DNA from: Bispira polyomma
Taxonomy: Eukaryota
Reading direction: 5' to 3'
DNA length: 64,000 nt
Assembly (NCBI GenBank): GCA_965649765.1
Contig: OZ287755.1
Coordinates: 43,028,001-43,092,000, forward strand
Positions 5,895-26,827 of this stretch are shown piece after piece (positions within the stretch are counted from its first letter, which is position 1; every line of letters begins with the position of its first letter). The position numbers and the translations under genes are program-made. The notes beneath the pieces were generated by a model. It made no database searches, was not told where the DNA came from, and saw nothing but the letters and a program-made list of their open reading frames with translations.

Positions 5895-6443
5895 ATGGAA
5901 AACATACAGCCCCCTCAATCTATGGACTCTACAGCCCATGCAAATTTGGTTGACAGTTGGCAAAGTTTTAAAGACAGATTTAAATTATATTTACAAGCTT
6001 CTGGTGCAGGTAAGAAGGAATCAATCCAGGTGGCTATTCTTTTGCACACCATGGGAGAGCAGGTGATCGAAACTTTCCGCTCGTTCACATTTGACCCTTC
6101 AGAAAATAAGGAAAAGTTATCGCCAGTGATTGAAAAAATTGAGGCCTATTTTACACCAAAGACTAATGTAGTGTTACAGAGGTTCAACTTCAACAAGGCC
6201 ACCCAGGCTGAAGGAGAGCACACTGAAAGCTATCTGGCTCGTCTGAGGACATTGATCAAAACTTGTGAGTATAGTGATTTTGCAGATTCCCTGATCAGGG
6301 ATAAGATTGTTGTTACCACAACCAATAAAGGTTTAAAGGAAAGATTACTGAGGGAAGCAGATTTGACTTTGGGAAAATGTATCGATCTCTGTAAAACAGC
6401 AGAGGCAAAAAGACGCCATATTGAGCAGCTTCAACAGGGTACT
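5895..6443 (+). pseudogene. gag: Gypsy gag, 5' part
   Basis: W..FK.RF..YL.ASG and LIRDKIV...LKERLLREADLTL motifs; cut off at the Maverick TSD. Confidence 0.9.
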
Positions 6444-6622
6444 AGTAGTAGTAGGGGGAGTGATTCACGCTGATGATTAGTGCCCAATTTGTGCCCAATC
6501 CCATATACTTGTGCACAAAATGAAAAAAGCCCGTGACCTTGAGTCTTTTTGCCCTCTTATAGATTTTTTACTTTGATTGAATACATTATGATTTTGCTAC
6601 CTCCACATACTACCACCTTCTT

Positions 6623-7087
6623 CTAAAAACCTCCAAGTTGGAACATGGGTTCTAATTTAGGTGCTACTTTTAGTACAGCATTCTTGTAACAGAAGCTTTC
6701 TGTCCTTTCTACTCTCTTCCACATTTTAACTATTTGTCGCCAATCACTTACAGTTAAAGAGAATTCTCTCCCTCCACTGAATATTGAAAGGTATATTATA
6801 TCCCTCGGAAACTTTCTGAATTTGCCCATTTTATTATAGGAGAGTTCTTTCGTTATTCTAATTTTTTCAGATTCACTAATAGGAATTGACATCTTTGTAT
6901 TTTCTCTCCTTATCGCCTTGTTGATAGTGGGTATACTTCTGAATAATTTTTTGTAGCTTTCATCTCTTATTGTTATGTTGTTGAAACCAAAATATTTATT
7001 TCTTTCACTGAAAGATTTTCTTTTAATATTCAATGTTCTTCCCAATATGTCTTTTCCAATATCTACCGCAGTCTTTATTTGAGCCAT
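6623..7087 (-). CDS. Maverick hypothetical protein, possibly tandem PC4-like ssDNA-binding domains (intact copy)
   Basis: 154-aa ORF; ITIRDESYKKLFRSIPTINKAI and FSLTVSDWRQIVKMWKRVE resemble the PC4 ISL..EQW..L helix motif. Confidence 0.6.
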   Translation of the reverse strand: MAQIKTAVDIGKDILGRTLNIKRKSFSERNKYFGFNNITIRDESYKKLFRSIPTINKAIRRENTKMSIPISESEKIRITKELSYNKMGKFRKFPRDIIYLSIFSGGREFSLTVSDWRQIVKMWKRVERTESFCYKNAVLKVAPKLEPMFQLGGF

Positions 7088-7155
7088 TTTTACAAATGAA
7101 TGAAATTTTTATGAAGTCTACCTCCCTCTTATACCTTATTACTTTATTTGTATAG

Positions 7156-7503
7156 TCAAGTAACCTTTTTTTCAAATTTTAATCTCACCGCATTCAAACC
7201 TTTTGTTCTTTTTATGCTAAAGTGGTAGCTGCTGTCTGTGTCATATAATTTAATGAATAGTTCTTTCATTGTTAATTCTTTTATTTCAAAACATAAATGA
7301 ATTCTTTCACTTATGTTTATTTTATGTAACAAAACCAAATGTGTAGTTCTTTGACATATACTCTTGTAAAAGATTTGGTTCTTATAGAACTCTGTTAAAT
7401 CTCTTAGTTCTAAAGCATTTTGAAATCCTTCACCTTCTTTCTTCCAACTCATAATGGCTTTTGAATCACAATCTGGATTGTTTATTGTCAATAAATGTGA
7501 CAT
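7156..7503 (-). CDS. Maverick hypothetical protein (115 aa)
   Basis: ATG-initiated ORF with identical translation in both arms. Confidence 0.7.
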   Translation of the reverse strand: MSHLLTINNPDCDSKAIMSWKKEGEGFQNALELRDLTEFYKNQIFYKSICQRTTHLVLLHKINISERIHLCFEIKELTMKELFIKLYDTDSSYHFSIKRTKGLNAVRLKFEKKVT

Positions 7504-7616
7504 TTTAAAATTACTGTGTTTGTGTTGTTGTTGTTTTTTTTCCTATTCTTTAAAGGTGAAATGAGAACAACTATTTTTTTCTAAACTACCTTTATTTTCA
7601 ATATTATTTACACGAA

Positions 7617-7619
<3 letters not shown>

Positions 7620-7655
<36 letters not shown>
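7620..7655. repeat. (TA)n microsatellite, mirrored at about 25342-25377
   Basis: Read directly from the sequence. Confidence 0.9.
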
Positions 7656-7658
<3 letters not shown>

Positions 7659-7730
7659 CAAAATAAAATACACAAATCACCATACATATAATATTATTTA
7701 CAACACACTATGAACATATTTCTAAACTAT

Positions 7731-8408
7731 TTAGTCATCTAACAGAATCATTTTTATGTAACCACAGTCTTTTGAATGTCTTTGATGTTCGGCTAAGGGC
7801 TCGTCCAGGTACTCCCAGGAATGAAGAATTATAGAACACCAGAGGCACTGACATCTGTCCCCTAAACCAGTGTACATCAATCCAGCTCTGGCTAACTTTT
7901 CTGGTTTTACTATCTTGCCATCGCTCCACCCTCTGTAGCTTTCCAGACGATTTTGATACAACTTATAATTACCTCTTTCAATTTTTGTCAATTCACTAGG
8001 GAATACAGTTTGCACGTATTCGCAATTCGGGTTGAGTTTGGAGTGCATTTTCAACGGTTCATCAAAGTAATTCCAGTTCTTCACCTGCATGTAACACCAC
8101 GGACATACACAACTGTCACCATAACCAGTGTATCGAAATCCCCCCCTGGCTGCATCCTCTCCACTCACTCCAGTACTTTTTGGCCAACCTCTGAAACTTT
8201 CTAATCTGTTTTTGAAGATTTTGTAATCTAGCCAATCCCTAGTCATAGCCAGTGATTCTTCCTCACATTGGAAATTGCGGAACTTTTTTGTCAGTTCACT
8301 TATTCTGTCTTGCATATCTATTCTTCTTCTATAACTAGATGCAGAGGCTGCAACAACACAGTCAGTCTCATCTTCCCTTGCTCTCCTTTGAGTTGTATTC
8401 TCTGCCAT
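7731..8408 (-). CDS. IAP-like protein with two BIR domains and no RING (intact, intronless)
   Basis: Two RLESF/Y..W...LA.AG/GF.YTG.GD.C.C.WC...H...C motifs; likely ATG at 8408 downstream of a TATAAA box. Confidence 0.92.
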   Translation of the reverse strand: MAENTTQRRAREDETDCVVAASASSYRRRIDMQDRISELTKKFRNFQCEEESLAMTRDWLDYKIFKNRLESFRGWPKSTGVSGEDAARGGFRYTGYGDSCVCPWCYMQVKNWNYFDEPLKMHSKLNPNCEYVQTVFPSELTKIERGNYKLYQNRLESYRGWSDGKIVKPEKLARAGLMYTGLGDRCQCLWCSIILHSWEYLDEPLAEHQRHSKDCGYIKMILLDD

Positions 8409-8519
8409 CTTGTTTCCTTTCTGACTGCAATGTGGTTGCTTTCCCAATTTATATCCTTTTTTTAATATTGAGTCATTTTCTTTTATTTCACTAAAACATT
8501 ACTCACAATTCATAATTTA

Positions 8520-8800
8520 TTCATCAATTACATCATCACTATTTACCTTGTCAGCATTGTTTAACCAATTACCTCATCATTATTTACTTTGACTATTTAT
8601 CCAAATACTCTGTCATTATTTACTTTGACAGCTTTGTTTAACCAACAACCTCATCATTATTTACTTTGACAACTTGACCAAATAATGTCTCACTATTTAC
8701 TTTGACAGCTTTGTTTATCCAATTACCTCATCATTATTTACTTTGTTCATTTAACCAAATAATGTGTCAATATTTACTTTGACAGCATTGATTTATCTAC
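8520..8800 (-). repeat. Array of about 36-41-bp degenerate repeats upstream of the IAP (mirrored at about 24200-24470)
   Basis: Recurrent (TG)TCAAAGTAAATA units. Confidence 0.85.
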
Positions 8801-8839
8801 TTTGATGGTAATTGATTAAAAGGTTAAACCATTGGCATT

Positions 8840-9286
8840 TTAAATGAACTTTGAAATATAAAATGATTTTATATTCACATCATTAACTTTATAATCTTTA
8901 TCGAAAGTCTTTAAGATATCAGTATAGCTCTTTCCCCTACATTTATGGTAAGCGTAATATAGACAATATTCCCCACATAACATGCTCTTGTAACTTTGTA
9001 CTCTTGCGTTATTTTTGCTATAACTATCCTGATGTCTCAACACAAAATTTTCAAAACTTTTCGGAGCTAAATCACCTAAAGAATCAAAATATTCCGCCTC
9101 TTGTTTATTTACATACATTGCTACCCAATGTTCCCCTTCATGAGGGTAAGGTTTTGTGTTTACAATCAGAATTTTAGGTAAATTTTGAAATTTTACTGGT
9201 AATTCATTTGCTGCATATACACCGCCATAATATTTGCTGATGAATCTATCATTCAACATTTTTTCTTTTATCTCAGAAATATTCAT
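8840..9286 (-). CDS. Adenain-like cysteine protease (left copy, intact)
   Basis: IVNT...GEHWVA...EYFDSLG...VQ.....LCGEYC, giving the His-Asp-Gln-Cys catalytic set. Confidence 0.93.
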   Translation of the reverse strand: MNISEIKEKMLNDRFISKYYGGVYAANELPVKFQNLPKILIVNTKPYPHEGEHWVAMYVNKQEAEYFDSLGDLAPKSFENFVLRHQDSYSKNNARVQSYKSMLCGEYCLYYAYHKCRGKSYTDILKTFDKDYKVNDVNIKSFYISKFI

Positions 9287-10381
9287 TGTTCTACAACTCT
9301 TGCCTCATCAATAGTTAACATAGATGGGAAACGAGCATATAATATTGCAGTCACACTTTCTACTAAAGCTTTTCCAAAATTTACAGTTATTCTTGTGTGA
9401 CCCTTTTTACGTTCTGATTTAAGTTCACCACTCACATTACTGTCTATATTAAACACATAAAGACAATATCCATTCGGATAATCTGTATATTTAATAAGAT
9501 TGTTCTCATTTTCACCATATCTCCCATAAAACAAGCTATTATATGCTTCTGCGTATTATCCTCCAGTAAAAGTAGGTCTGTTAGACAAATATCCTTCTTT
9601 ATAATTTGGTCGAAGTGGTCTGCATGGAACGGGCACACCATCTACACTGAATTCCAAGTAATTTAAATGGTAGTGATGAAATTTAAATGGATTTACAGTA
9701 TAGCTACCGCTATAACCTTCTCCTGGAACAAAACCCACAATTAATTTGCTAGGAACCTCTCCATGAAAAATTCCATCATCACTCCACATCATATTACCTT
9801 TTGGTATGGTAAAAGTCTTAAATTCGCTTTGCCAGAAAGGGTATAATGCTGGTCCCATCTTCAAAGCCTTTGCATGAGCTAGTACGAGCTCGGGACTTAA
9901 TTTTACCTGACAGATCTTTAAAGCGGCATTAATAATTTCTATCTTATACTCCTTATCTCCATCCTTTGCCATTAATCTGAATCTATCAGTGCTGGGATAT
10001 AATTTTAGATTGATCTGCACTCCGTTTACAATGAGTCTATCTTGATCGGCAATATCCACATGTAAGGGGCCGTATAAGTCCACTACTGTGCTTGCTGCAC
10101 ATCTGTCTTGTCTAGTAGCAAACCCTATATTGTCATCTCCAGTTACATCATTATGAGTAGCAGCTGTGTCATTTGCAACCAATTCATTTTCCAACTGTCC
10201 CTGCTGACTCACAAAACTATTATGTAACCATACATCTATCAAACTTTTGTATGGATAGTTAATTCCAACACCTGGTGAAATATTGATTTGCTGTAGAGTT
10301 AGATCTGCCTGACGAAAGAGAGAATGTAATGTTAAATTGACGGGACCAACTATAGCAGTCGACCCTAAGTCACTTCCATTA
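9283..10381 (-). pseudogene. Major capsid protein, C-terminal two-thirds (left copy; N-terminus missing, TAA at 9556-9558)
   Basis: VGPVNLTLHSLFRQ, GPLHVDIADQDRLIVNGV and NPFKFHHY motifs typical of Polinton major capsid proteins. Confidence 0.9.
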
Positions 10382-10666
10382 GGCTTCTGTCAATCTCTGT
10401 GTTAATGAATTCACTACCCCAAAGTTATACATACTATCATCTTTAACCATACATTATAAAATAACTTTACTTGTAACTTACTCATAACACCACTGTCCTA
10501 AACATAATATAATTTGAAATTCAAATAATAGAGACTGTAGCTGGAGGTAAAAGAATAATATCATATATAAAGAAATTTGGAAACCCAGAACATTCTAATA
10601 AGGCATACTAATAAAATTTAAAACTCATCTTCCTCTTGTCATATTCCTTAATTTACCCAAATTAAT

Positions 10667-11148
10667 TTAGAATTCATCCTCCTCTGTTTCTTTCCTAGAT
10701 AATGACCTGGTCACCATCCTGTTTGCACCCTTACCTTTACCCCCTTCCTTGTCTACCTTAGTTTTAACCTGAGTTTCAGAATTTACTGGGGAGGGCCTTA
10801 TAAACAATGTGGTTTCTTCCTCGTCATTTTGTTCAACTTCCCCCATATCAAATGCTGGTACCCTAAACATAACACCCTGTCCCCTACACCTTTTACATCT
10901 AACCAAAATAAATATAATCACTGTGGGAATACCTCCAGCTACAGCCCCTATCAGTAAACTTATTTCAACAATGTGTATTGTTTCTCTCTTGTTTTCCTCT
11001 GCTTCATCATCACCCTCCTGTCCATTCCTCTCCTCTTCCTTCACTTCCACCCTCCCCTCTTCCTTCACTTCCTCCCTCTCCTCTTCCTTCACTTTCACCC
11101 TATCCTCCTCCTTCTCCTCCTCTTCCCCTTCATCCTCGCCTGGTTCAT
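10667..11148 (-). CDS. Glu-rich single-pass membrane protein fragment or exon
   Basis: Acidic tract, hydrophobic ISLLIGAVAGGIPTVIIFILV followed by RCKRCR stop-transfer; preceded by an acceptor-like tattgtAG and no good ATG. Confidence 0.55.
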
Positions 11149-11200
11149 CTACAATATAAAATACATATACCACTTATTAATATTTTTTTACTCTATTTAG

Positions 11201-12016
11201 CAACCAGCATGGGTGATCTCCATTACTGCCCAGCAACCAAAACAGCAGTCTCAGCGACACCTTCAACTCTTACTACCTCCTCGCCAGCAGCCACAACAAC
11301 AGGCTGTTCACCCTCAACAGCAGCACCTACAACAGGCTGATCAGTCTCAACAACAGGCTCTTCACCCTCAACAGCAGCACCTACAACAGGCTGACCAGCC
11401 TCAACAACAGGCTCTTCACCCTCAACAGCAGCACCTACAACAGGCTGACCAGTCTCAACAACAGGCTCTTCAACCTCAACAGCAGCACCTACAACAGGCT
11501 GATCAGCCTCAACAACAGGCTCTTCACCCTCAACAGCAGCACCTACAACAGGCTGATCAGTCTCAACAACAGGCTCTTCACCCTCAACAGCAGCACCTAC
11601 AACAGGCTGATCAGCCTCAACAACAGGCTGTTCACCCTCAACAGCAGCACCTACAACAGGCTGATCAGTCTCAACAACAGGCTCTTCACCCTCAACAGCT
11701 GCCACAACATCAGGCTGGACAGCCTCAACAGCAGCACCTACAACAGGCTATTCGGTCTCAACAGCTGCCACAACATCAGGCTGATCACCCTCAACAGCAG
11801 CTCCTACAACAGGCTCTTCGGCCTCAACAGCTGCCACAACATCAGGCTGATCAGCCTCAACAGCAGCTCCTACAACAGGCTCAGCATCCTCAACTACATG
11901 ACCTACAACAGGCTGAGTACCAATTTCAAGAGTTACCTCTACTCAGTCTTCAAGATTTAGATGATTTTGAAGATTTTTTTGAGAGGGGAGACAATGAATT
12001 CCTCTATGGAGGTTAA
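11201..12016 (+). CDS. Gln-rich repeat protein fragment with acidic C-terminal tail
   Basis: Frame open from 11201 after an acceptor-like ctctatttAG; (QQQALHPQQQHLQQADQS/P)n, then LQDLDDFEDFFERGDNEFLYGG. Confidence 0.5.
   Translation, partial: QPAWVISITAQQPKQQSQRHLQLLLPPRQQPQQQAVHPQQQHLQQADQSQQQALHPQQQHLQQADQPQQQALHPQQQHLQQADQSQQQALQPQQQHLQQADQPQQQALHPQQQHLQQADQSQQQALHPQQQHLQQADQPQQQAVHPQQQHLQQADQSQQQALHPQQLPQHQAGQPQQQHLQQAIRSQQLPQHQADHPQQQLLQQALRPQQLPQHQADQPQQQLLQQAQHPQLHDLQQAEYQFQELPLLSLQDLDDFEDFFERGDNEFLYGG
11294..11915. repeat. 54-bp minisatellite (about 8 units plus degenerate longer units)
   Basis: caacaacaggctcttcaccctcaacagcagcacctacaacaggctgatcagtct repeated. Confidence 0.92.
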
Positions 12017-12054
12017 TGTTGACTCCTCTAGTGAGGATGAAGTTTACTACTGAT

Positions 12055-12360
12055 GTAGATTTTGAAGAAGTATCTTATTATCACTCAGTAGTAGATTTTG
12101 TAGACATATCTTAATATCATTTTTTTATTTCTTTTATTAACTCAGTAGTAGATTTTGTAGAAGTATCTTATTATCACCTTTTTTATTTCTTTTTTTAATT
12201 AAATCTTTTAAAAACTTCTCTTCCAAAGTCTCTTATTTCTATCAACACAGAACAATAATCATTTATCACAAATTTGTTATTGAAGTGTATTACTGAATCC
12301 TTTTTTATACAACTATGTAGATTTTCTAGAACTATCTTAATGATACCTTTTTATTTATTT
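12055..12360. repeat. Short degenerate direct repeats
   Basis: gtagattttgtagaagtatcttattatcac-like unit occurs four times. Confidence 0.7.
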
Positions 12361-13707
12361 TTTAAAATGAATATTAAATGTATATTAAATGTTTTGACAA
12401 CTTCACCTCCAAAGTCTATTTTTTCTAACAATAAAGAACAATAATCATTTCACACAACTGTGATATTTTTATTTGATTTGTTTTCACAATAACTACACCA
12501 CCTCCTCAAACAAATAATTCTACCACCACCACCTTAAAGAGTTCTACATCTTAACTAGCTTCTAATACCATTTGTCAATTCAGTACATCCTTTGACTGTC
12601 AGCTCAGGTATGGGATAATAGGTACAGTCAACTTGGCTACGGACAGTCAGGAGCACCATTTTAGGAATATTTTCCTTTAAAAGGAAAGTGTCTATCTGAG
12701 TGATCTTGCTCTCGTATATAATCAAAGTACTGATTTTATCATCCGAGATTTTGTAAATGTTTGCATTTGTCACAAGCCTGCAATACAGCTTCCCCCCCCC
12801 CCCCCCCCCTCAGAAAACGACATTCCTGTGCTTCTCCCAACCCCATCCAACAAACTAAAATAGTGCTCAATATTAAACACCTCATATTTATCACGTACAA
12901 ACAAAAAAAGAAATCTATGAGATATGGATATAGTCATTTGAGAGACAAAACAATTAATCTCTCATCCCGTTTTACGAGGTCTTGAATTAAAAGAATAAGC
13001 TAACTACTTGATTTGCTTGGGGCTAAACTTCATCCGTCTGCTGAGAAATTTTTCCTAGAAATACCCATAAGATGCAACAACATTCAAAATTAAACCACCA
13101 TTTAATTCTAAAAACCATAGAAATGCAAGAAATAGATTAATTTTATAGTAGAATTTCGTTTATAGTAACTGGACGAATTGTCTGTCCCTGACCGAATAAG
13201 GTGTCCGTGCAAATTGCCTGCTGCTTGTGTTTATAATTTGATTGCCTGACATAAATCGGACACCAAATAATAAATGTGTCATAACTTCAAATTAAATAAC
13301 TTTATTGACCTAACAATACTGTACTTCCTTGAATATTGGTACTGTAATTGTTTCATATGAAACTCGTGGTCCATTTTCTACCTAGATTATTATTTAAAAT
13401 TTGACAGTCGATTTACAACTGGCGGACGAATTATAACCAGAGGCAATACATTAAACTGTCAGGTGACATTAATAACACCCTCCGCCAATTAAGATCAGCC
13501 ACCAATATACAACGGTCTGTCAGCCCCGTGTCAGTCAAATCCGAGCGGTTACAAACTGTATATTATGATCGGATGATTTACAACTAGCGGGCGAATTTTA
13601 AACACAGGCAGTATAACCACATAACGCTGTGTAACCCTTTAATGCATATTTTATATTTTTCTCACCTCAAATCTTTCTCAAAACTGAAATAATCAGAGAT
13701 TAAAAAT

Positions 13708-14030
13708 ATGTTCACATCTTGCACAAGTATGTTATCCCACCAAATGAAACTAGTGGTCGGTACTAGGAATAGAACACTGGAGCTTCTTTCTGATAATCTG
13801 ATCAAAACACTAACCACTAAAAGATGGGAGATCATGTAATGGATAAAATGTTACAGCCAGCACACAGAAGCAATATAACAGATAGGAGCACTTAGTATTT
13901 AGCTTGTTTGTTGCACTGTATGTGAACAGACATCATTGTAGAAGTGTTCTCCCCCCATTTAAAATTTACAAACATAAAAAACAACTGATAGAGTAAAGGC
14001 TTCGGGAAACCTCACTCTCTGCTGTTGATA
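13708..14030. repeat. About 320-bp diverged direct repeat, copy 1 (begins with a minus-strand SINE head)
   Basis: Similar to 16163-16487; the first 110 bp also resemble 49708-49825. Confidence 0.8.
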
Positions 14031-16162
14031 ATTTGTCGCATCTCACAGGATGCGTTTTTACAAATGAAACCAGAACAAAGACATAGAACAACCATTCATA
14101 TATATGTGTCTAGAAACTTAACAAAACTCCTGCACAGAAATATTAGATTTAGGTCTTTGAGAAAACCAATTTTTTTTTTGGGGTGCAAAATTATTTAAAA
14201 TAAGGCATAAAAAAGGACACTGAAATATTAAAACAAAACAACAACAGAACCAATTAACAAAATTTACACATTATACAAATTGATAGATTTATCCTTTCTA
14301 TCCACTTTTATTTTTTTTCTAACTTGAAATGGCAAACTATGGGTCTTGTTACATTATCAATGCCTAACAGTCATTGTAGAGGTTCAAATGTTTGTGCTTG
14401 AACCATACACAGAGAGGCAGTAGTAAGTTTTAAGCCTGGCTGGCCAATAGGACAATAGATGGTCTGGCGTCCTCCGAGTAATGCTATTAATGCCTCCAAC
14501 TTCCTGTTTCTGTATGAAAAGATCTTGTTACCTATGATACTTTTACTGTTATAAAAGTTTTGGCATAGGTGTCACCTGGTTCTCATAAACCGCATGGTCT
14601 GTTGTTTTTTGTTTTTTTTCATTTATGTATTTAGTTGCCAGACATGTATGTGATAAGTTGGACTTGTCATAAGACAAGCACTAATTCCCGTTCATTTGCA
14701 TAGGGTGATTGCAAACTATAGATCACATTATAAATAGCCTGTGAAAGTGACTAGATGAACATAAAGCTTTGATAAAAAGAATACAATTTATTGCTTTGGG
14801 GCTCAAAATGTTTTTGTGATTGGTATAAATTTTTCGGTTAATTGTTGTTAACAGTAGGGCATATAAGTGTTCTGTTTAGGTTAATTGGGTAATGTGACAC
14901 TTCTATCAATGTCAGCTTCACTACATTCCGTCAACTAAAAATGTAAGCCCAGTGTTTAGATTCCTGAGAAACATTTATTCGTATTTACTGACACATGTGA
15001 TATTGCAAGGTAACAAATGGCAGGTTGCGAAACTTAGTCTTATTTGAATGAAGGAGGATTTTTGATATTTTTTGCGCACTTTGAGGCTGCTCGAGACGTC
15101 TTGAGACTTGCAGGAATGTTACAGCTCTGGAGTACGAATGTGCCATGTATTATTGTCATGTGTTACAAATATTTACCATAGAAATTGCCTGGCCACAATA
15201 CACACAGTTAAGGAGTTTAAATGTCAACACAAAGTAATAATTTTTTACATTAACGAACCAGTGCTACTGGCATGTTCTATTTGCAGGCAATAAAGGCAAA
15301 CATGAGTCTACAGTGGCAGATTCGAAGCAGGTTAGAGCATTGTTACATATGTACATTTATGTTTATCATTGCAAATGGTGTTATAATGCCATAGTAATTG
15401 GTATAGAATGTAATGCTGGAAAATATGCCTTGACAATTGTAAGACAAGTGTCCACAGTGATATTTGAGGGATAAATCAAGCTTTGGACTTTAGTAGTTAC
15501 AAAAAATGAAAGAAAAACATTATTTTCATTTACAATACAGTATTGTCAGTTACAAGCTTATTTTCGCTTCAGTACAGTATTGTCAGTTACAAGCTAAAAG
15601 TTGTGTGAGTGTGAGTTCGAATTTTAAGGCTGTTTTAATTTTAGAATTATAGTACAATACATTGCATGGTCTTTAAAGATGCTGCTTTTGTTGATATTCT
15701 TACTATATCTCTACACCCATCAGACATAATTCATTTAAAATCATCATCACAGATACTTTTTGTTATATCAGTGGTATTGTGTTACAATTGCCTAGTACCT
15801 CTAAAATGGTAAACGCTATAAGGAAACGACCTGTCCTAAAAATGGGCCTAGTCCCAAAAAATGACGAAAATATTCTTCAAACCTCCCATTGGAATGTAGT
15901 AGGCGAGGTCCATTCTTAAAGCGCGGCTTTTATTTCGAAACACCCACTTAAACAAAAACCTGCTGAGGAATGCAGTAAAGTGTCTATTGTCTTTGCAGTG
16001 ATGACTCCTTGGAATACTTTACGCAAATTAATTACATGTATTAATATATTTCATTTAATTGATCTTACTTTTGTAAAACTTAGATTGTACCAAGAAAAAA
16101 TACAGAAATATCAAATATTGAGAATACTATAATAATTGGTCATCTAAGCCACCAGTCAAACT

Positions 16163-16487
16163 TGTGTTCACACCTTGCACAAGCATGTTATCCCACCAAA
16201 TGAAACTATCGGCCAGTACCAAGAGTAGAACACAGACCCTTCTGATAATCAGATCAACACATTAACCACTAGATGATGGGGGATTGTGTAATAAAAATAA
16301 TGTTACAGCCAGCACACAGAAGCAATAACAGATAGGAGCACTTAGGATTTAGCTTGTTTGTTCCACTATGTGAACGGAAATCATTGTAAAGGTGTTTTCC
16401 CCATTTAAAATTTTACAAACACACAAAAATAACAGATAGGGTAAAGTGACTAAAGTGGTTGGGAAACCTCTCTCTGTGGTGTTGACA
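16163..16487. repeat. About 320-bp diverged direct repeat, copy 2
   Basis: Shared atgttatcccaccaaatgaaacta and gttacagccagcacacagaagcaata...gataggagcacttag blocks. Confidence 0.8.
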
Positions 16488-16700
16488 CCAACTCCCTCTT
16501 AAATATTGAGAATACTATATTAATGCAGATCAGATCGCCATTTATTTATTTATTTATCACCATGAAAAATTTAAAAAATGAGCCATTTATATAGTTCAGG
16601 CAACAAATTTAACTGTGTAGATATCTGTACATTTATTTATTATTCCCATAATTAAAATGCCCTTTGTCTTAAAGTACATTTTCAAAATTGAAATGAAATA

Positions 16701-17010
16701 GTGGTCTTTGTGGCCTAGCGGCCAGAGCATTTAACTTTGAATCAGAGGGTCCGAGAGGGTCACAGGTTTGATCCTTGCTGCAGGTCTGAAGATTGTACCC
16801 TTGGACAAGGTACTTTACACTAAGTTGTCCCTTTCCATCCAAGCGTATAAATGGGTATCTGGCTGCTAATGGGTGTTTAATCTCTGCACTGTATGTGGCA
16901 GAATAGCTAGCATATGCTCCCTTGGGGAGCTGAGTTGAACAATTGGTTGACAAGTGAAAGAACACAAATACACTCTAATTAACGTAATCTATTATATAAA
17001 GCACTTTCTG
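16701..17010 (+). mobile_element. tRNA-derived SINE with CORE-like central domain
   Basis: A-box tggcctagcgg, B-box-like ggtttgatcc, cccttggacaaggtactt core, tataaatgggta block. Confidence 0.75.
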
Positions 17011-17869
17011 TAAGAACCACTGTTTGCACAGATATATTTATCAGCTTTCTGAAACGTGTGGCTAATTTCACAATAATGTATTACCAGTATAATATTAAAC
17101 TTATAGGTCTCATATCAAGTTTTTAATATGCATGCAGTAAGATAACAGAACAAGCATAAACCTATATATATTTAACCTTTAATTGAGCTGTATGAGAGAA
17201 AGAAGACCATCTTTTTAAATAAAGATTGTGTACAGATACGACAGCTAAGAATAGCATATATAGGTTGTTAAAGTCCTAATGAGAAAAGAAAATACTAAAG
17301 TAAAGACAAATACATTGAAGTGGTTTTCTAGTGATAAGTAGTTACTTTAATTTGAAATGTATTATTTATTACTTTGTAACTTATACTGTCGTTCTCTAGT
17401 CTCAGTGTTTTTGATTGGAACTTAAAATGACAAATAAGCTGTCTCATGTTTTCACTGTACATTAAATGAATGAAGACATTTCAAGTTCATGAAGATCCAT
17501 TTCTCATGTCAGTTAAGTTACCAGTGTATTAATCAGTTGTGGAAGCTATAAATACCAATGATATAACAAACAAAATTGGGACAATATAGGACCAAAGTTT
17601 ACAGGTGGTATGTACTCATCATCAGGCCTGTGTCACATGCACACAGTTTGCAAGTTTATAGGTTTGCAATAATTATCAAATGATTTGATATGTGGTATAA
17701 AGACTATATATCTAAAATGTGTATATAGAAATAAATAAATCATATTTAAAACTTGTACCTTTACCAATAATAAACTCTTACTGTCATATACAGGACATGA
17801 TGTAAAATCGCAGATTTATGCATATCAATACATTGGTCAAAATTTGAATGATGTCAGTCCCTTGGTAAT

Positions 17870-18125
17870 CAGTTTAATGTTAATGTTTTACTCCTATAGT
17901 GCCACAATTTATGACCAGGCCTCCTCTGTGACACTTATCCAAATCAGTAGAATGAAAAGTTCGATAGGGGAATAGGTTCGTGATCAGAGTACAGTCGTGA
18001 CCAGGAGACAAAAGTTAAGACAGAAAAGCGAGTTGATACACATGTGTTCTGAGCTTTTCCCTGAAGCCTGTAATCCTTGTCTCATTGTTAAAGACAAGTA
18101 GGGAGACTATTCTACTCAGCAGCTG
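17870..18125 (-). mobile_element. L2-like LINE 3' remnant inside the Maverick
   Basis: NETRITGFREKLRTHVYQLAF*; clearly diverged homolog of 30433-30690. Confidence 0.75.
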
Positions 18126-18836
18126 TTTGTCCCTCTGTCCCAAAATACAAGGCTGGTTACAAGTGCACTGTTTTGGGCTCAATTTACTTGCATGGAACTG
18201 CACGAGTTCCAAGATGAGTCTGATAAAAATTTTTGTAAAGGCATATCAAAGTCAAGTCTCAATAATGCCATGGAGTTGTTTGAAAGTGTGCTTCATAACC
18301 AAATACCACTTTCTTCAACCAATATCGGTTTTAGAGCAAAAAACAATACAATTTTTACTTACATGCAGGATAGAGCAGGCTTCTCGTACTATTATATCAA
18401 AAAGGAGGTTTTGGATGACGGAATTCGTACCAAACCATTAAACATGGTTTTGAAACCATGGAAACAAAAAATTGTTATAGTTGAAAATGCTCTTGACCTT
18501 CTATCAAACGGTTTTTGCTTTGAGTTGAAAGTCGATGGAAAGACGTATTCAAGTGTTGAAGAATACTTTCAAGAAAGGGAACATGATTTCAATCCAAATG
18601 CAAACACTAGTTTGGAGGAGAATTGGGAGTGGTTTCAAGAAAGAGACAAGATTATGCAAGAAATTTTAAAAGTAAAACAGTGTTGTAATTTTGCTCAGGT
18701 CTTAAAAAATACTCGGAATTCTTATATATGTTACAATGTTTCAGATAATTTGTATTGGAATGTGGGTTTACCGCAGAGACTAGTGAAGGTTATAAATATT
18801 CTCATCCAGGTCAAAATCAAATGGGAGAGATATTGA
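18126..18836 (+). CDS. Maverick hypothetical protein, probably 5'-truncated
   Basis: The 214-aa ORF from 18192 stays open upstream to the LINE junction and lies in tandem with the ATPase. Confidence 0.6.
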   Translation, partial: FVPLSQNTRLVTSALFWAQFTCMELHEFQDESDKNFCKGISKSSLNNAMELFESVLHNQIPLSSTNIGFRAKNNTIFTYMQDRAGFSYYYIKKEVLDDGIRTKPLNMVLKPWKQKIVIVENALDLLSNGFCFELKVDGKTYSSVEEYFQEREHDFNPNANTSLEENWEWFQERDKIMQEILKVKQCCNFAQVLKNTRNSYICYNVSDNLYWNVGLPQRLVKVINILIQVKIKWERY

Positions 18837-18861
18837 TGAAAGTTAGAGAAACATTATAAAA

Positions 18862-19494
18862 ATGTCCATAAAATTTGAAGATCCAGCAAGTATACTTATT
18901 GCTGGTTGTAGTAATTCTGGTAAAACCACTTTTCTGTATCAGTTGTTAAAGTGTAAGGATGCAATGTTCCAGAAACCTGTATGTAAAATACTATACTGCT
19001 ATTCTGTTTGGCAAAATATTTTTGATAAATTACAAGATGAAATAAATATTAAGTTCATTAAGGGTCTGCCTGAGGAGATAGAGATAGATAGCATGAATGA
19101 CGGGAATCATAATATTTGTATAATAGACGATTTGCAGGAAGAAGTGTCTGGAAATAAATTTATTGAAAAATTATACACAACCCTCTGTCATCATTATTAC
19201 CTCACAGTAATAACTATTTTACAAAATTTATTTTATCAAGGTAAAAGCTTAAGAACAATCAATTTAAATAGTCATTATTTGATATTATTTAAAAACCCCC
19301 GAGATATAAATCAAATAAAGTATTTAGGAAACCAAACTGGGTTAAAGAAGACTTTAGAAGAAGCATATAAAAATGTAACAGACGAAAGCTACAATTATCT
19401 TTTAGTTGATCTCTCTCCGCACTCATCTACCCAATATAAATTAAGAAGTCATATTTTGCCGAAAGAAGATACTGTGGTATATCTTAGAAAGTAA
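18862..19494 (+). CDS. Packaging ATPase (A32/FtsK-like)
   Basis: Walker A GCSNSGKT, Walker B ICIIDD, ILQNLF...RTINLNSHYLILFKNPRD. Confidence 0.95.
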   Translation: MSIKFEDPASILIAGCSNSGKTTFLYQLLKCKDAMFQKPVCKILYCYSVWQNIFDKLQDEINIKFIKGLPEEIEIDSMNDGNHNICIIDDLQEEVSGNKFIEKLYTTLCHHYYLTVITILQNLFYQGKSLRTINLNSHYLILFKNPRDINQIKYLGNQTGLKKTLEEAYKNVTDESYNYLLVDLSPHSSTQYKLRSHILPKEDTVVYLRK

Positions 19495-19513
19495 GTCTAT
19501 AAGTATTATAAAT

Positions 19514-19834
19514 ATGAAGGGTAGGCTTAAAATGAATGGAGATTTTGTAAGGTTTTTATTAAGCACACACATCAAACAAAGATATGCAATAATAAAAACA
19601 TTAAATGAAAGACAGACTGGAGTAATTTTGGAAATAATTCTCAATATTCTGAGATTGGTTAATTTGAAAAAGTACAAAACAAAAATCAGTAAAAATTTTA
19701 GACTTTGGAAGAAAATAACCAATAAAAAATTAAAAAGAAAGGAAAAGATTAAACTCCTAAAAAACAATGACAAAAAAATAATAAGTCTCTTAGATTTGTT
19801 TAGGAATGATCTATTAAATTTAATAACAGAATGA
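19514..19834 (+). CDS. Basic Maverick hypothetical protein
   Basis: KQRYAII...ILEIILNIL...KYK pattern, typical position after the ATPase, ATGA overlap with the next gene. Confidence 0.7.
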   Translation: MKGRLKMNGDFVRFLLSTHIKQRYAIIKTLNERQTGVILEIILNILRLVNLKKYKTKISKNFRLWKKITNKKLKRKEKIKLLKNNDKKIISLLDLFRNDLLNLITE

Positions 19835-20244
19835 ATAAATTTGTGTTGATACCTTATGATCGATACAGAATGTTATTAGAATCAAAGGAATACAGTAGTG
19901 GAGATAATCCAAATCCTAAAAATATGATAACTGATACAATATCAAAAGAAACTGAAGAAAAGAAAACAAAGGAAAATGAAGAAATAGAAAAAAACAATTC
20001 TAACGATTTCATTGAAAGTAAAGAGGGAAAAAAAGAGGAATTGGTACAGCATATGACAACAGATAAATTAGATGAGAACTTGAAAAACAAGAAAGAACTA
20101 AATGAAGAGGTAAACCAAAGGGGTTTGGGACTAAAAGAAATTAAAATACCCCCACCCGGATTACCACCAAATAAAGACAAAAAGAAAACAGAAAAGGAGA
20201 ATAGTGCATACAAACACTGGGTAAAAAAATGGGATAAATATTAA
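19831..20244 (+). CDS. Maverick hypothetical protein
   Basis: N-terminal KFVLIP...Y..L, QRGLG and PPPGLP motifs; compact gene order. Confidence 0.7.
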   Translation: MNKFVLIPYDRYRMLLESKEYSSGDNPNPKNMITDTISKETEEKKTKENEEIEKNNSNDFIESKEGKKEELVQHMTTDKLDENLKNKKELNEEVNQRGLGLKEIKIPPPGLPPNKDKKKTEKENSAYKHWVKKWDKY

Positions 20245-20293
20245 TATAAAAAGAGAAAAAAAGCCACAATATGCTTGGACTTTTAAATAGACA

Positions 20294-21220
20294 ATGGACG
20301 AAAATCAGGAAAAATATCTACACGACCTTTATTACAATCCAAAAAATGCAGTGTCTTATAGCGGTTTCAATAAATTTTATAGCTTCATCCAAAAAAACAG
20401 TCAGCAAAATTTTTCCAAAAAGGATATTAGGGAATGGTTGGGAAAACAAGATGCTTTTGTCTTGCATCGACCTGTGATAAGACATATTAAACGTCCAATT
20501 ACCATTGCAGTGAGAAAAGACCAACGTGAGTACAAGAGCCTAATATTTAGAAATTGGTTAAAAGAAAAAGGAGTTCAACATTTCATGAGCACCAATGAAA
20601 CAAAGGTGGCGATGGCTGAAAGAGTAATAAAAACAATCAAACTAAAACTGTACCGAAGGATGACAGCAGAAAACAATTATAAATGGAATGATGCGCTTGC
20701 TAGTCTCACAGAGTCCTACAACAATTCCTTTCATAGAATGATTAAAACCACTCCTTCAAAGGTGAGGGAAATGGATGATTATGAGTTATGGAAAAATCAG
20801 TATATTAAAGACTACGATGTGAAAAAACCAAAATTAAAGAAAAACAAAAAACCAAGATCAGAAAAATTACCTTATAAATATAAAATAGGAGATATAGTAA
20901 AGGTTGCGTATCTATCCAGACCTTTCGAGAGAGAATACGATGAGAAATATTCTGGTGAAAATTTCACCGTTGCTGATAGAAATATAAATCAGGGTAAGGC
21001 TCAGTACAAATTGAAAGATTTAAATAACGAACTAGTATTGGGAAATTTTTTTAATAAGGAATTGCAAAAGGTTTATGTTTCTAAAGAGACCACATATCGA
21101 ATAGAAAAAATTCTGAAAAGTAGAAAAAGAGGGGGTAAAAAGGAATATTTAGTAAGGTGGGAAAATTATTCCTCAAAATTCGACAGCTGGGTGAAGGAAG
21201 AAGACATTCAGGATATATAA
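20294..21220 (+). pseudogene. Retroviral-like (c-) integrase with C-terminal chromodomain; catalytic core deleted in frame
   Basis: YYNPK..SYSG, WL..QDA..LH, KVAMAERVIKTIK, YNNSFHRMIKTTP, chromodomain YRIEKIL...EYLVRWENY...DSWV; the W.ADL...IDVFS...TD segment is missing at KDQ/REY. Confidence 0.9.
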
Positions 21221-21258
21221 GTTAAATGTAAAACTATGCAAAGTAAAAATAAACCAAA

Positions 21259-21669
21259 ATGAATCAATTATACCTACATATTCATTCCACCAATTCGATA
21301 AATTTTCACCCACAAAATCATGCATGGGAATTTATTGTAGAAATAGTAGAGGGTATAGAACTTGAAGGGAGATGGAAATGTGGTCTAGCAGAAATTAGAT
21401 ATGATAAAGAGGTTGTAGAGGAAATATATGTATATTGTGACATTGTTGATGAAAGTCTGATTGAAGATTTTTGTAGACCTATTTTAAGAGTGGTAGATAA
21501 AGCTGAACATTACAATCAAATCTACTATAAAAGGGTGAACAGAACAAATCTAGAGAGAATTAAGGTATAGAAAACTGGTAAAAACTTAAAAAAACTAAAC
21601 ATTTCAAATACCCCTACTTACGTGGTTTTAAGTCTTCAAAAAGACAATAACAATGGTCAATTGGAATAA
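21259..21669 (+). pseudogene. Minor capsid (penton-like) protein with in-frame TAG at 21568-21570
   Basis: LYLHIHS.NS...P.N...F.V...IELEGRW..GL.EI and IYVYCDIV...ILRVV; the frame continues past the TAG to TYVVLSL. Confidence 0.75.
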
Positions 21670-21940
21670 GGTTTGTGAAAATATGAGGGAGGGGAAATTG
21701 AGAATGGATAGAAAACTATATATAATAGGGGAACAGGCAGGTGGTGGGGGAAATAATGATAACGAACTAGTTAGCATAATTTCTCCTACAGAGCAGCAGG
21801 TTGATATGGCTAGATCAGAACTAAAAAAGAAACACAAAAAGGGAAAAGTAGTTAAAAGAAAAACCAAGAAAGTTGCAAAGAGGAAGAAAATAAAACATAG
21901 AAAGAAAAAACAAGTTAAAAAAACAAAGAAAAGAAAATAG
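21653..21940 (+). CDS. Small basic (core-like) Maverick protein
   Basis: W..V..NM.EGKL, QAGGG, ISPTEQQVDMARSEL, Lys-rich tail. Confidence 0.75.
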   Translation: MVNWNKVCENMREGKLRMDRKLYIIGEQAGGGGNNDNELVSIISPTEQQVDMARSELKKKHKKGKVVKRKTKKVAKRKKIKHRKKKQVKKTKKRK

Positions 21941-22033
21941 TGAATATACCTTGAAAAGTATATATATATATATAGTGTTAGAGTCAAATAATCTTTAGTT
22001 CAATTCTTGCTTTTGAGTGAATAAAAAATTAAA

Positions 22034-23716
22034 ATGAATGTCTTACAGGAAAAGGTGGCTCTATTTCAAAAACCTTTGATAGATCCATCAGTCCATCATA
22101 TTGATTGGGTTGAATACAGACCAACCGGTCAAATTAAAAGTGGAAATGTAATTGAATTTAATGTAACGAGGATGGGGCGGATTATATAGATTTGAAGAAA
22201 AGTAGATTGCATATTTCAATGAAAATTACAAATAGTAATGGAAGTGACAAGGAAGGGGGTAAAGGTAAGGGTGCAAACAGGATGGTGACCAGGTCATTAT
22301 CTAGGAAAGAAACAGAGGAGGATGAATTCTAAATTAATTTGGGTAAATTAAGGAATATGACAAGAGGAAGATGAGTTTTAAATTTTATTAGTATGCCTTA
22401 TTAGAATGTTCTGGGTTTCCAAATTTCTTTATATATGATATTATTCTTTTACCTCCAGCTACAGTCTCTATTATTTGAATTTCAAATTATATTATGTTTA
22501 GGACAGTGGTGTTATGAGTAAGTTACAAGTAAAGTTATTTTATAATGTATGGTTAAAGATGATAGTATGTATAACTTTGGGGTAGTGAATTCATTAACAC
22601 AGAGATTGACAGAAGCCTAATGGAAGTGACTTAGGGTCGACTGCTATAGTTGGTCCCGTCAATTTAACATTACATTCTCTCTTTCGTCAGGCAGATCTAA
22701 CTCTACAGCAAATCAATATTTCACCAGGTGTTGGAATTAACTATCCATACAAAAGTTCGATAGATGTATGGTTACATAATAGTTTTGTGAGTCAGCAGGG
22801 ACAGTTGGAAAATGAATTGTTTGCAAATGACACAGCTGCTACTCATAATGATGTAACTGGAGATGACAATATAGGGTTTGCTACTAGACAAGACAGATGT
22901 GCAGCAAGCACAGTAGTGGACTTATACGGCCCCTTACATGTGGATATTGCCGATCAAGATAGAGTCATTGTAAACGGAGTGCAGATCAATCTAAAATTAT
23001 ATCCCAGCACTGATAGATTCAGATTAATGGCAAAGGATGGAGATAAGGAGTATAAGATAGAAATTATTAATGCCGCTTTAAAGATCTGTCAGGTAAAATT
23101 AAGTCCCGAGCTCATACTAGCTCATGCAAAGGCTTTGAAGGTGGGACCAGCATTATACCCTTTCTGGCAAAGCGAATTTAAGACTTTTACCATACCAAAA
23201 GGTAATATGATGTGGAGTGATGATGGAACTTTTCATGGAGAGGTTCCTAGCAAATTAATTGTGGGTTTTGTTCCAGGAGAAGGTTATAGCGGTAGCTATA
23301 CTGTAAATCCATTTAAATTTCATCACTACCATTTAAATTACTTGGAATTCAGTGTAGATGGTGTGCCCGTTCCATGCAGACCACTTTGACCAAATTATAA
23401 AGAAGGATATTTGTCTAACAGACCTACTTTTACTGGAGAACAATACGCAGAAGCATATAATAGCTTGTTTTATGGGAGATATGGTGAAAATGAGAACAAT
23501 CTTATTAAATATACAGATTATCCGAATGGATATTGTCTTTATGTGTTTAATATAGACAGTAATGTGAGTGGTGAACTTAAATCAGAACGTAAAAAGGGTC
23601 ACACAAGAATAACTGTAAATTTTGGAAAAGCTTTAGTAGAAAGTGTAACTGCAATATTATATGCTCGTTTCCCATCTATGTTAACTATTGATGAGGCAAG
23701 AGTTGTAGAACAATGA
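22034..23716 (+). pseudogene. Major capsid protein (frameshift near 22168, 369-bp insert 22249-22617, TGA at 23387)
   Basis: N-terminus MNVLQEKVALFQKP...WVEYRPTGQI....IEFNV/DYIDLKKSRLHI is not in the ORF track; the gene resumes NGSDLGSTAIVGPVNL after the insert. Confidence 0.9.
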
Positions 23717-24159
23717 ATACTTCTGAGATAAAAGAAAAAATGTTGAATGATAGATTCATCAGCAAATATTATGGCGGTGTATATGCAGCAAATGAATTAC
23801 CAGTAAAATTTCAAAATTTACCTAAAATTCTGATTGTAAACACAAAACCTTACCCTCACGAAGGGGAACATTGGGTAGCAATGTATGTAAATAAACAAGA
23901 GGCGGAATATTTTGATTCTTTAGGTGATTTAGCTCCGAAAAGTTTTGAAAATTTTGTGTTGAGACATCAGGATAGTTATAGCAAAAATAACGCAAGAGTA
24001 CAAAGTTACAAGAGCATGTTGTGTGGGGAATATTGTCTATATTACGCTTACCATAAATGTAGGGGAAAGAGCTATACTGATATCTTAAAGACTTTCGATA
24101 AAGATTATAAAGTTAATGATGTGAATATAAAATCATTTTATATTTCGAAGTTCATTTAA
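23713..24159 (+). CDS. Adenain-like cysteine protease (right copy, intact)
   Basis: Same motifs as the left copy; ATGA overlap with the capsid stop. Confidence 0.93.
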   Translation: MNTSEIKEKMLNDRFISKYYGGVYAANELPVKFQNLPKILIVNTKPYPHEGEHWVAMYVNKQEAEYFDSLGDLAPKSFENFVLRHQDSYSKNNARVQSYKSMLCGEYCLYYAYHKCRGKSYTDILKTFDKDYKVNDVNIKSFYISKFI

Positions 24160-24589
24160 AATGCCAATGGTTTAACCTTTTAATCAATAACCATCAAAGT
24201 AGATAAATCAATGCTGTCAAAGTAAATACTGACACATTATTTGGTTAAATGAACAAAGTAAATAATGATGAGGTAATTGGATAAACAAAGCTGTCAAAGT
24301 AAATAGTGAGACATTATTTGGTCAAGTTGTCAAAGTAAATAATGATGAGGTTGTTGGTTAAACAAAGCTGTCAAAGTAAATAATGACAGAGTATTTGGAT
24401 AAATAGTCAAAGTAAATAATGATGAGGTAATTGGTTAAACAATGCTGACAAGGTAAATAGTATAATGTAATTGATGAATAAATTATGAATTGTGAGTAAT
24501 GTTTTAGTGAAATAAAAGAAAATGACTCAATATTAAAAAAAGGATATAAATTGGGAAAGCAACCACATTGCAGTCAGAAAGGAAACAAG

Positions 24590-25266: not shown

Positions 25267-25338
25267 ATAGTTTAGAAATATGTTCATAGTGTGTTGTAAA
25301 TAATATTATATGTATGGTGATTTGTGTATTTTATTTTG

Positions 25339-25382
<44 letters not shown>

Positions 25383-25493
25383 TTTGTGTAAATAATATTG
25401 AAAATAAAGGTAGTTTAGAAAAAAATAGTTGTTCTCATTTCACCTTTAAAGAAAAGGGAAAAAAAACAACAACACAAACACAGTAATTTTAAA

Positions 25494-25841: not shown

Positions 25842-25909
25842 CTATACAAATAAAGTAATAAGGTATAAGAGGGAGGTAGACTTCATAAAAATTTCATTCA
25901 TTTGTAAAA

Positions 25910-26374: not shown

Positions 26375-26548
26375 AAGAAGGTGGTAGTATGTGGAGGTAG
26401 CAAAATCATAATGTATTCAATCAAAGTAAAATATCTATAAGAGGGCAAAAAGACTCGAGGTCACGGGCTTTTTTCATTTTGTGCACAAGTACATGGGATT
26501 GGGCACTAATCATCAGCGTGAATCACTCCCCCTACTACTACTGGTACT

Positions 26549-26782: not shown

Positions 26783-26827
26783 CATATCAGCTGATGTAAA
26801 TAGTGTGGTCAGGACAATAATGATGAT

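What the first reader, a model, noticed from the sequence alone, without database searches (positions are those of the whole stretch)
7731..8408. Maverick-encoded intronless two-BIR inhibitor of apoptosis
Seen: an intact 225-aa ORF with two complete C2HC BIR motifs and no RING, next to the protease and duplicated in the arms. Known: BIR genes are anti-apoptotic genes of baculoviruses, ASFV, iridoviruses and mollusc herpesviruses, and are not core Maverick genes; bivalves have large IAP expansions. Inference: a host-derived counter-defence gene that points to a true infectious phase, and a route by which Mavericks could inflate IAP counts in genome annotations.
Basis: partly seen in the sequence, partly recalled or inferred. 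Interest (0 to 1): 0.75.

Follow-up and report, generated by a model that had tools for sequence, protein, structure and literature searches.

The report
Virus-like transposons carrying cell-death blockers
This intact gene, which resembles the proteins that block cell suicide, rides inside virus-like Maverick transposons throughout this genome and is kept under selection there; it likely protects the cell while the element replicates, and such passengers may make up many of the 'extra' cell-death genes counted in shellfish genomes.

Summary
Confirmed. 7731-8408 (-) is an intact 225-aa ORF with two C2HC BIR domains and no RING, beside the protease of a 20.1-kb Maverick (6444-26542, 6-bp TSD). 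The second-arm copy is frameshifted, and the arm duplication is a derived state: three full-length relatives carry one copy. The gene is fixed cargo: 60 of 61 related protease hits have it within 4 kb, and between-family dN/dS is about 0.2, like core genes. The pattern is genome-wide: at least 92 of the 150 best BIR hits are Maverick-linked, many of them single-BIR genes of other families. Maverick BIRs group apart from this genome's own IAPs, with oyster herpesvirus ORF99 among them (weak support). New clue: the leader holds a conserved caspase-type site (DETD|C). It occurs in 15 of 25 representative leaders versus 2.1 in shuffles. BIR2 keeps a type II peptide groove. Likely role: RING-less, caspase-sensing apoptosis damper. 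IAPs in adintoviruses are already mentioned in print. An infectious phase, host origin and expression are not shown. The finding gives a testable alternative to 'retroposition' for intronless bivalve IAPs.

The parts
7731..8408 (-). Two-BIR, RING-less IAP-like ORF, 225 aa, intact
8358..8372 (-). Codons 13-17, DETD|C: predicted effector-caspase site in the N-terminal leader
   Evidence: D16 and C17 invariant in 8 aligned proteins, one from another organism; enrichment test
8013..8207 (-). BIR1 (about aa 68-132), type I-like (M121-H122, L125)
   Evidence: type definitions from PMC8917759
7755..7949 (-). BIR2 (aa 154-218), type II (E207-H208, H211), aligned to XIAP BIR2
6444..26542 (.). Non-autonomous Maverick/Polinton derivative, 20.1 kb, ends AGTAGT...ACTACT
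6438..6443 (+). Left 6-bp target-site duplication
   Evidence: the joined empty site is seen in short-read contigs
26543..26548 (+). Right 6-bp target-site duplication
6444..10753 (.). Left inverted arm: derived inverted copy of the element's right end (TIR, two unknown ORFs, BIR, protease, 3' part of the capsid gene)
22246..26542 (.). Right inverted arm
24590..25266 (+). Second BIR copy, frameshifted near 24855
8840..9286 (-). Adenain-like cysteine protease (second copy at 23713-24159 +)
   Evidence: Pfam C48 E 0.016 and C5 E 0.064, both under cut-off; His/Asp/Gln/Cys motifs read by eye
9283..10381 (-). 5'-truncated major-capsid-like gene (identity inferred from position and size; no Pfam hit)
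7156..7503 (-). Unknown 115-aa ORF, conserved downstream of BIR in many copies
6623..7087 (-). Unknown 154-aa ORF next to the TIR
18102..18836 (+). Remnant of the polymerase gene's 3' end (polymerase-NADAR fusion in relatives); the rest is absent here
18862..19494 (+). Packaging ATPase (Pox_A32-like, E 0.0016, under cut-off)
20294..21220 (+). Integrase-chromodomain gene, about 200 bp shorter than relatives at 20525
5895..6443 (+). gag-like ORF of an LTR retrotransposon interrupted by the Maverick; it resumes after 26548, with protease and integrase remnants at 26807 and 28789

Best explanation
The gene is a long-standing accessory gene of this genome's Maverick elements, kept by purifying selection, and it likely encodes a RING-less apoptosis damper whose BIR2 groove is predicted to bind IAP antagonists or processed caspases and whose DETD|C leader would be cut by an active effector caspase. 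Shown: intact C2HC domains, fixed linkage to the capsid and protease genes, dN/dS about 0.2, conserved site. Inferred: expression during element replication; BIR2 acting as a sink that spares host IAPs (without a RING it cannot ubiquitylate); leader cleavage acting as decoy or switch, as at Asp20 of DIAP1; the two BIRs arising by duplication inside the Maverick lineage. Selection acts on the replicating lineage, while inserted copies decay.
For: 29 of 30 best genome copies have capsid, protease or integrase hits within 1.5 kb. In reverse, 30 of 30 protease-anchored loci and 60 of 61 protease hits at >=49% identity have the BIR gene beside them. Between-family pN/pS is 0.21-0.27 in five pairs (dN/dS 0.19-0.22 where dS is not saturated), against a neutral expectation of 0.63-0.68 at the measured kappa of about 3.3. 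Protease dN/dS is 0.13-0.22. DxxD plus a small residue occurs in 15 of 25 representative leaders (shuffle mean 2.1, max 8 in 5000), in 6 of 7 two-BIR leaders and in 1 of 69 large-virus IAP leaders. BIR2 has Glu before the zinc-binding His in 24 of 26 domains; BIR1 has it in 0 of 26. The model matches XIAP BIR2, XIAP BIR1 and cIAP BIR1. Caspase cleavage of DIAP1 at Asp20 is described in PMC5739542 (passages).
Against: No expression or activity data. The linker between the two BIRs is short, so the XIAP linker mode of caspase-3 inhibition (recalled) is not available. 14 of 26 BIR2 domains have Asn instead of His/Trp at the second type II position. The 25 leaders share ancestry and were hand-picked, so the shuffle test overstates independence; most viral control leaders are short (median 13 aa). 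10 of 25 leaders lack the strict motif. The most distant pair tested gave pN/pS 0.38, and within-family singletons gave 0.49. The model is low-confidence (pLDDT 58, pTM 0.35). BIR1/BIR2 sisterhood is only 85/87, and the alternative is not rejected (p-AU 0.31).
Confidence: 0.62

Rival explanations
1. The protein mainly tunes immune or stress signalling: BIR1 binds TRAF- or TAB1-like partners, or the RING-less protein acts as a dominant negative on host IAP ligases. It may even promote death to release particles.
For: BIR1 is type I-like and scores best with XIAP BIR1 and cIAP BIR1 among single-domain entries. There is no RING.
Against: Most related Maverick genes have one BIR with type II residues only (Glu in 22 of 25, His in 21 of 25). 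The caspase-type leader is shared by one- and two-BIR forms. In the best tree BIR1 is a duplicate of BIR2, not a host BIR1.
Confidence: 0.2
2. The gene is anti-apoptotic but serves an intracellular, transposon-like stage (surviving linear DNA ends and integrase breaks in germ cells), not infection. This rivals the first reader's 'infectious phase', not the biochemistry.
For: Germ-line copies at 92-100% identity lie on at least 8 contigs, and a polymerase-less derivative was itself mobilised. None of 57 viral and 6 metagenome BIR loci carried Maverick genes.
Against: Capsid-like, protease and ATPase genes persist, and the first two are under purifying selection. The gene sits in the capsid-protease block. 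A herpesvirus BIR falls in the same group (83/85). The collections searched hold few animal Mavericks, so the blanks are weak.
Confidence: 0.35
3. The gene is a recently captured host IAP retrocopy that hitch-hikes without function.
For: GC3 of the two-BIR gene (0.32-0.47) resembles host IAP exons (0.37-0.48) more than the adjacent protease (0.20-0.26).
Against: It holds the same position across families whose synonymous sites are saturated, dN/dS is about 0.2, no poly(A) tail follows within 230 nt, no host BIR is its near neighbour, and 48%-identical relatives occur in another organism.
Confidence: 0.03

Closest known systems
Adintovirus (capsid-bearing Polinton/Maverick) IAP homologues: PMC8502044 and bioRxiv 10.64898/2026.07.28.741253
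   Same: An IAP-like accessory ORF in a Maverick-type element. PMC8502044 says so in one sentence and labels IAP twice in the text of Supplementary Fig. S2; the preprint lists IAP in a figure legend.
   Different: In the passages I saw, neither paper gives architecture, selection, copy number, tree or leader motif. Here the gene is near-universal in a family group and accounts for most of the top BIR hits of the genome.
Baculovirus and other large-virus IAPs (two BIR + RING)
   Same: Intronless viral two-BIR anti-death genes.
   Different: Nearly all of the sampled viral ORFs carry a RING and have short leaders; 1 of 69 leaders has the DxxD site. Their BIRs do not group with Maverick BIRs.
Ostreid herpesvirus 1 ORF99
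   Same: RING-less BIR protein that falls inside the Maverick group in the best tree. L183 matches the ORF96-101 lengths and the DNA polymerase neighbour given in PMC5994699.
   Different: One BIR and a long C-terminus. The placement is weak: excluding it from the group is not rejected (p-AU 0.42).
Drosophila DIAP1 N-terminal Asp20 site; human XIAP BIR1-BIR2
   Same: A caspase-type site in the N-terminal leader (PMC5739542); a type I plus type II BIR order.
   Different: No RING, Cys rather than Asn after the site, and a short inter-BIR linker. The tree suggests that the type I/II order arose again by internal duplication (weak).
Intronless single-BIR 'retroposed' IAPs of bivalves (hard clam clade 1, PMC7831173; oysters, PMC8917759)
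   Same: Single-exon, BIR-only, dispersed, mostly silent, near DNA transposons. 11 of the first 28 of 49 clade-1 rows are single-exon 408-bp genes on six chromosomes with near-zero FPKM.
   Different: They were explained as retrocopies. 'Maverick' and 'Polinton' do not occur in the main text of these two papers or of PMC13159474. Their flanks could not be examined here.

Membership tests
BIR-containing (IAP) proteins | BIR domain with C2HC zinc ligands | tested here: met
   Two PF00653 stretches with all eight ligands; BIR fold matches
BIR-containing (IAP) proteins | Type II peptide-binding groove (E/Q-H, W/H) | tested here: met
   BIR2 has E207-H208 and H211; BIR1 is type I-like
BIR-containing (IAP) proteins | Suppresses apoptosis or binds caspases or antagonists | not testable with these tools
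   No assay available
BIR+RING E3-ligase IAPs (baculovirus IAP3, XIAP, DIAP1 type) | C-terminal RING | tested here: not met
   The stop follows BIR2 closely; no RING in this ORF or in the two downstream ORFs
Maverick/Polinton | TIRs beginning AGTAGT and a 6-bp TSD (definition recalled) | tested here: met
   3 of 3 elements checked: window, C1, C7
Maverick/Polinton | Protein-primed polymerase B | tested here: inconclusive
   Absent from this copy except the 3' remnant. Long ORFs stand at this position in relatives. PF03175 hit only a more distant family's ORF, at E 1e-3 under cut-off; that ORF is 31-42% identical to the family's
Maverick/Polinton | Retroviral-type integrase with chromodomain | tested here: met
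   rve + Chromo in the C10 relative; Chromo in the window copy
Maverick/Polinton | Packaging ATPase and adenain-like protease | tested here: met
   Pox_A32 E 0.0016, C48 E 0.016, C5 E 0.064; all under the curated cut-offs
Maverick/Polinton | Double jelly-roll major capsid protein | tested here: inconclusive
   432-aa conserved ORF at the expected place, no Pfam hit; not folded
Adintovirus as an infectious virus | Virions or an extrachromosomal infectious stage | not testable with these tools
   No BIR-bearing Maverick among 57 viral and 6 metagenome loci; a weak blank
Processed retrocopy of a host IAP | Poly(A) tail, close host parent, independent insertion sites | tested here: not met
   No tail, no near host BIR, fixed Maverick context. 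A gene-specific TSD was not searched for

The most novel reading that the evidence does not exclude
Mollusc Mavericks carry their own lineage of RING-less IAPs with a caspase-sensing leader, shared with malacoherpesviruses, and a large share of the intronless 'retroposed' IAP expansion reported in bivalves (such as hard clam clade 1) is endogenous-virus cargo rather than host immune innovation.
Probability: 0.5. Interest if true: 0.8.

Novelty: new variant of a known kind. Interest (0 to 1): 0.62.

Why it matters
Bivalve IAP expansion is cited as an adaptation to stress, and its intronless, dispersed, silent part is put down to retroposition. In this genome at least 92 of the 150 best whole-domain BIR hits are Maverick-linked. 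That makes a one-afternoon test possible in any mollusc assembly and could cut host IAP counts sharply. It also gives Mavericks a selected, host-directed accessory gene with a concrete biochemical prediction (a caspase site plus a type II groove), and a possible gene-exchange link to oyster herpesvirus.

Tried and rejected
No RNA holder was listed, so there is no evidence on expression. The three runs laid are contigs of unrecorded kind from one study, possibly the source sample. The single-protein scan of viral contigs found nothing. The profile scan gave 57 loci, none with Maverick core genes; the metagenome scan gave 6 loci, none with them. Three homologue searches returned 1, 7 and 3 proteins, only one with a source name, so the taxonomic range is poorly known. 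The context of P0001-P0005 is unseen, apart from P0003, a model that fuses BIR to an integrase-like end with a chromodomain. Atlas hits only say 'BIR', commonest in Mollusca or Arthropoda. Three AU tests rejected nothing: BIR1 with host first BIRs p 0.31; Mavericks without the herpesvirus row p 0.42; Mavericks plus host p 0.22. The 68-column tree therefore cannot name a donor, and intron-split host BIRs such as survivin and BIRC6 were not sampled. Ten degenerate Maverick domains were dropped before the tree. GC3 was not raised in four of five single-BIR genes measured in frame; a sixth (L123) was out of frame and ignored. Rejected: arms as the normal TIR; arms as a one-off assembly artefact (the C1 copy has the same breakpoint and its own TSD); the frameshift as a pure long-read error (the same one-base gap appears in contigs of two runs). 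Earlier-finding look-ups were empty. No complex prediction was run. Literature: nine searches showed no paper linking Mavericks to IAP expansion. The library lacks most subscription journals, bioRxiv supplements are closed, figures are not held, and the PMC8502044 supplement was cut when stored.

Full report
OBSERVATION. The ORF is as described: 7731-8408 on the minus strand, ATG to stop, 225 aa. Pfam reports two BIR stretches (E 8e-36) and nothing else. All eight zinc ligands are present. It lies between an adenain-like protease (8840-9286) and two unknown ORFs, inside inverted arms of 4.3 kb. The element spans 6444-26542, begins and ends with AGTAGT, has a 6-bp target-site duplication, and interrupts the gag-like ORF of an LTR retrotransposon. 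The copy in the other arm is frameshifted near 24855.

THE ARMS ARE DERIVED. Twenty stretches around ten copies were fetched. Relatives on C10, C7 and C4 carry long polymerase-position ORFs, ATPase, integrase, a capsid-like gene, protease and one BIR gene; the C7 element has 152-bp TIRs. The window's copy has lost the polymerase, and its left end is replaced by an inverted copy of the right end. A copy on C1 has the same breakpoint, about 98% identity and its own TSD, so this derivative was mobilised as such. The duplication says nothing special about the BIR gene.

FIXED CARGO. The genome search listed 152 matches (478 candidates, 150 scored). Of the best 30, 29 have capsid, protease or integrase hits within 1.5 kb, and the thirtieth has the family's accessory ORFs. 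Anchoring on the protease instead, 30 of 30 loci and 60 of 61 hits at 49% identity or more have the BIR gene beside them (three second halves of split hits were left out). Of 20 more distant BIR loci, 19 lie in Mavericks, including a second gene order (polymerase, BIR, ATPase, integrase) with one- or two-BIR genes.

SELECTION. Between families, pN/pS is 0.21-0.27 in five pairs (bootstrap upper limits 0.27-0.41) and 0.38 in the most distant pair; dN/dS is 0.19-0.22 where dS is measurable. The protease gives 0.13-0.22. With kappa about 3.3, the neutral expectation of this statistic is 0.63-0.68. Changes private to single copies give 0.49 and include 5 stop codons in 11 copies, as expected for decay after insertion. 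Selection thus acts on the replicating lineage.

GENOME-WIDE SHARE. A PF00653 search had 537 candidates, of which 150 were scored. I held DNA for 82 of them: 52 with Maverick core genes seen, 13 assigned by sharing kilobases with a family whose extended member had core genes, 1 with accessory genes only, and 16 in long host-type exons. Of the 68 not held, 7 look host-type. Of the 61 short ones, 26 have a listed protease hit within 15 kb, against about 0.4% by chance and 0 of 22 host-type loci. So at least 92 of 150 are Maverick-linked. The scan favours BIRs within one exon, and many Maverick copies are broken, so this is not the share of annotated genes.

ORIGIN. In a tree of 115 BIR domains (68 columns, ten degenerate rows dropped), all 29 Maverick representatives group with five homologues from other organisms and one viral row, at 83/85 (not starred). 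The 22 host and 56 other viral domains lie outside; BIR1 and BIR2 of the two-BIR genes are sister groups at 85/87. The viral row L183 matches ostreid herpesvirus 1 ORF99 by the lengths of ORF96-101 and the polymerase neighbour (table passages of PMC5994699). AU tests reject no alternative (p 0.31, 0.42, 0.22). An old Maverick lineage of BIRs is the best reading; a host donor is plausible in principle but not identified. The host is probably a mollusc (inference from atlas taxa and the herpesvirus link).

MECHANISM. By the definitions in section 7 of PMC8917759, BIR2 is type II (E207-H208, H211) and aligns with XIAP BIR2 at these positions. BIR1 is type I-like. Across copies, Glu precedes the zinc-binding His in 24 of 26 BIR2, 0 of 26 BIR1 and 22 of 25 single BIRs. 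The low-confidence model matches BIR structures at about 1.5-2.5 A for most single-domain hits. The unexpected feature is the leader. D16 and C17 are invariant in 8 two-BIR proteins down to 37% identity, including one from another organism whose leader is otherwise different. DxxD followed by a small residue, the effector-caspase consensus (recalled), occurs in 15 of 25 representative leaders versus 2.1 in shuffles, and in 1 of 69 large-virus IAP leaders. The representatives are related and hand-picked, and the viral leaders are mostly short. DIAP1 is cut by caspase at Asp20 and then enters the N-end rule pathway (passages of PMC5739542); Cys after the cut is also a potential N-degron precursor (recalled). 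I infer a RING-less damper: BIR2 soaks up IAP antagonists or processed caspases, and the leader is a caspase decoy or switch (0.62). Rivals are signalling or dominant-negative action (0.2) and a functionless passenger (0.03). Whether it serves infection or an intracellular stage is open (0.35 for the latter).

PRIOR KNOWLEDGE. PMC8502044 (passages and supplement search) states that adintovirus homologues of Bcl2 and IAP were observed. A 2026 leafhopper preprint lists IAP in a figure legend (passage and section 21). So an IAP in a Maverick is known in outline. PMC7831173 (passages; Table S11 part 1 and 28 of 49 clade-1 rows) reports 51 of 159 hard clam IAPs as intronless and dispersed, 42 of them in one clade of single-exon BIR genes, mostly untranscribed, with DNA transposons enriched around IAP genes, and ascribes them to retroposition. 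PMC8917759 (passages) and PMC13159474 (passages and supplement search) make the same inference. None of the three uses the words Maverick or Polinton in the main text. PMC11131425 (term search) and bioRxiv 2025.04.19.649669 (passages) do not mention IAPs; the latter reports that bivalves are the richest lineage in polinton-type regions. Nine literature searches showed no paper making the link. I could not examine clam or oyster DNA, so the extension to those species is a prediction.

VERDICT. Real, selected, Maverick-encoded BIR gene; a new variant of a known kind. Interest 0.62, carried by the genome-wide share, the conserved caspase-type leader and the direct test it offers of bivalve IAP expansion.

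Noticed in passing
G000:C9:50396001-50413519 (L042, L043): An independent inverted duplication of at least 8.7 kb (99.6% identical) in another BIR-bearing Maverick family, with the junction near the integrase. Large fold-back rearrangements recur in these elements.
   Followed up: partly
window 22246-22618: About 370 bp from the left interior (10381-10753) sits inverted inside the right-arm capsid-like gene; the C1 sister copy lacks it.
   Followed up: partly
L041:1-2268; L128:7983-9626; window 18102-18836: The polymerase ORF ends in a NADAR domain in two distant families (PF08719, E 2e-11 and 5e-8).
   Followed up: partly
L085:3602-5512: A Maverick family carries a TATA-binding-protein-like ORF (PF00352, E 5e-12) and a 279-aa unknown ORF next to its single-BIR gene.
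   Followed up: partly
L120, L121, L122, L125, L048, L051, L096: Some Mavericks carry two separate BIR genes about 1 kb apart.
   Followed up: no
window 10667-12016; L031:4812-5765: A minus-strand acidic ORF with a predicted membrane segment and a 54-nt tandem array with mucin-like coding potential; in the C10 relative, a 318-aa ORF that starts like a signal peptide. No Pfam hits.
   Followed up: no
G000 C3:71629, C8:142721, C11:4593, C13:57524, C15:69458, C1:108345327: BIR hits with one identical score (71.3 bits) lie close to contig ends; the C13 one is in a Maverick beside a long tandem repeat. This hints at subtelomeric accumulation.
   Followed up: no
window 24855; C1:42584847, C11:17725892, C11:20765953: The same frameshift near codon 91 occurs in four copies and in contigs of two public runs.
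   Followed up: partly
window 7731-9286: BIR has higher GC3 (0.40) and higher synonymous divergence between families than the adjacent protease (0.26), which may mean module exchange between families.
   Followed up: partly
window 13700-18200: The polymerase region is replaced by about 4.5 kb containing dispersed host-type repeats, shared at 98% with the C1 sister copy.
   Followed up: no
window 45372-47326: An ORF with an emp24/GOLD match (E 9e-6) abuts a satellite of about 335-bp period.
   Followed up: no
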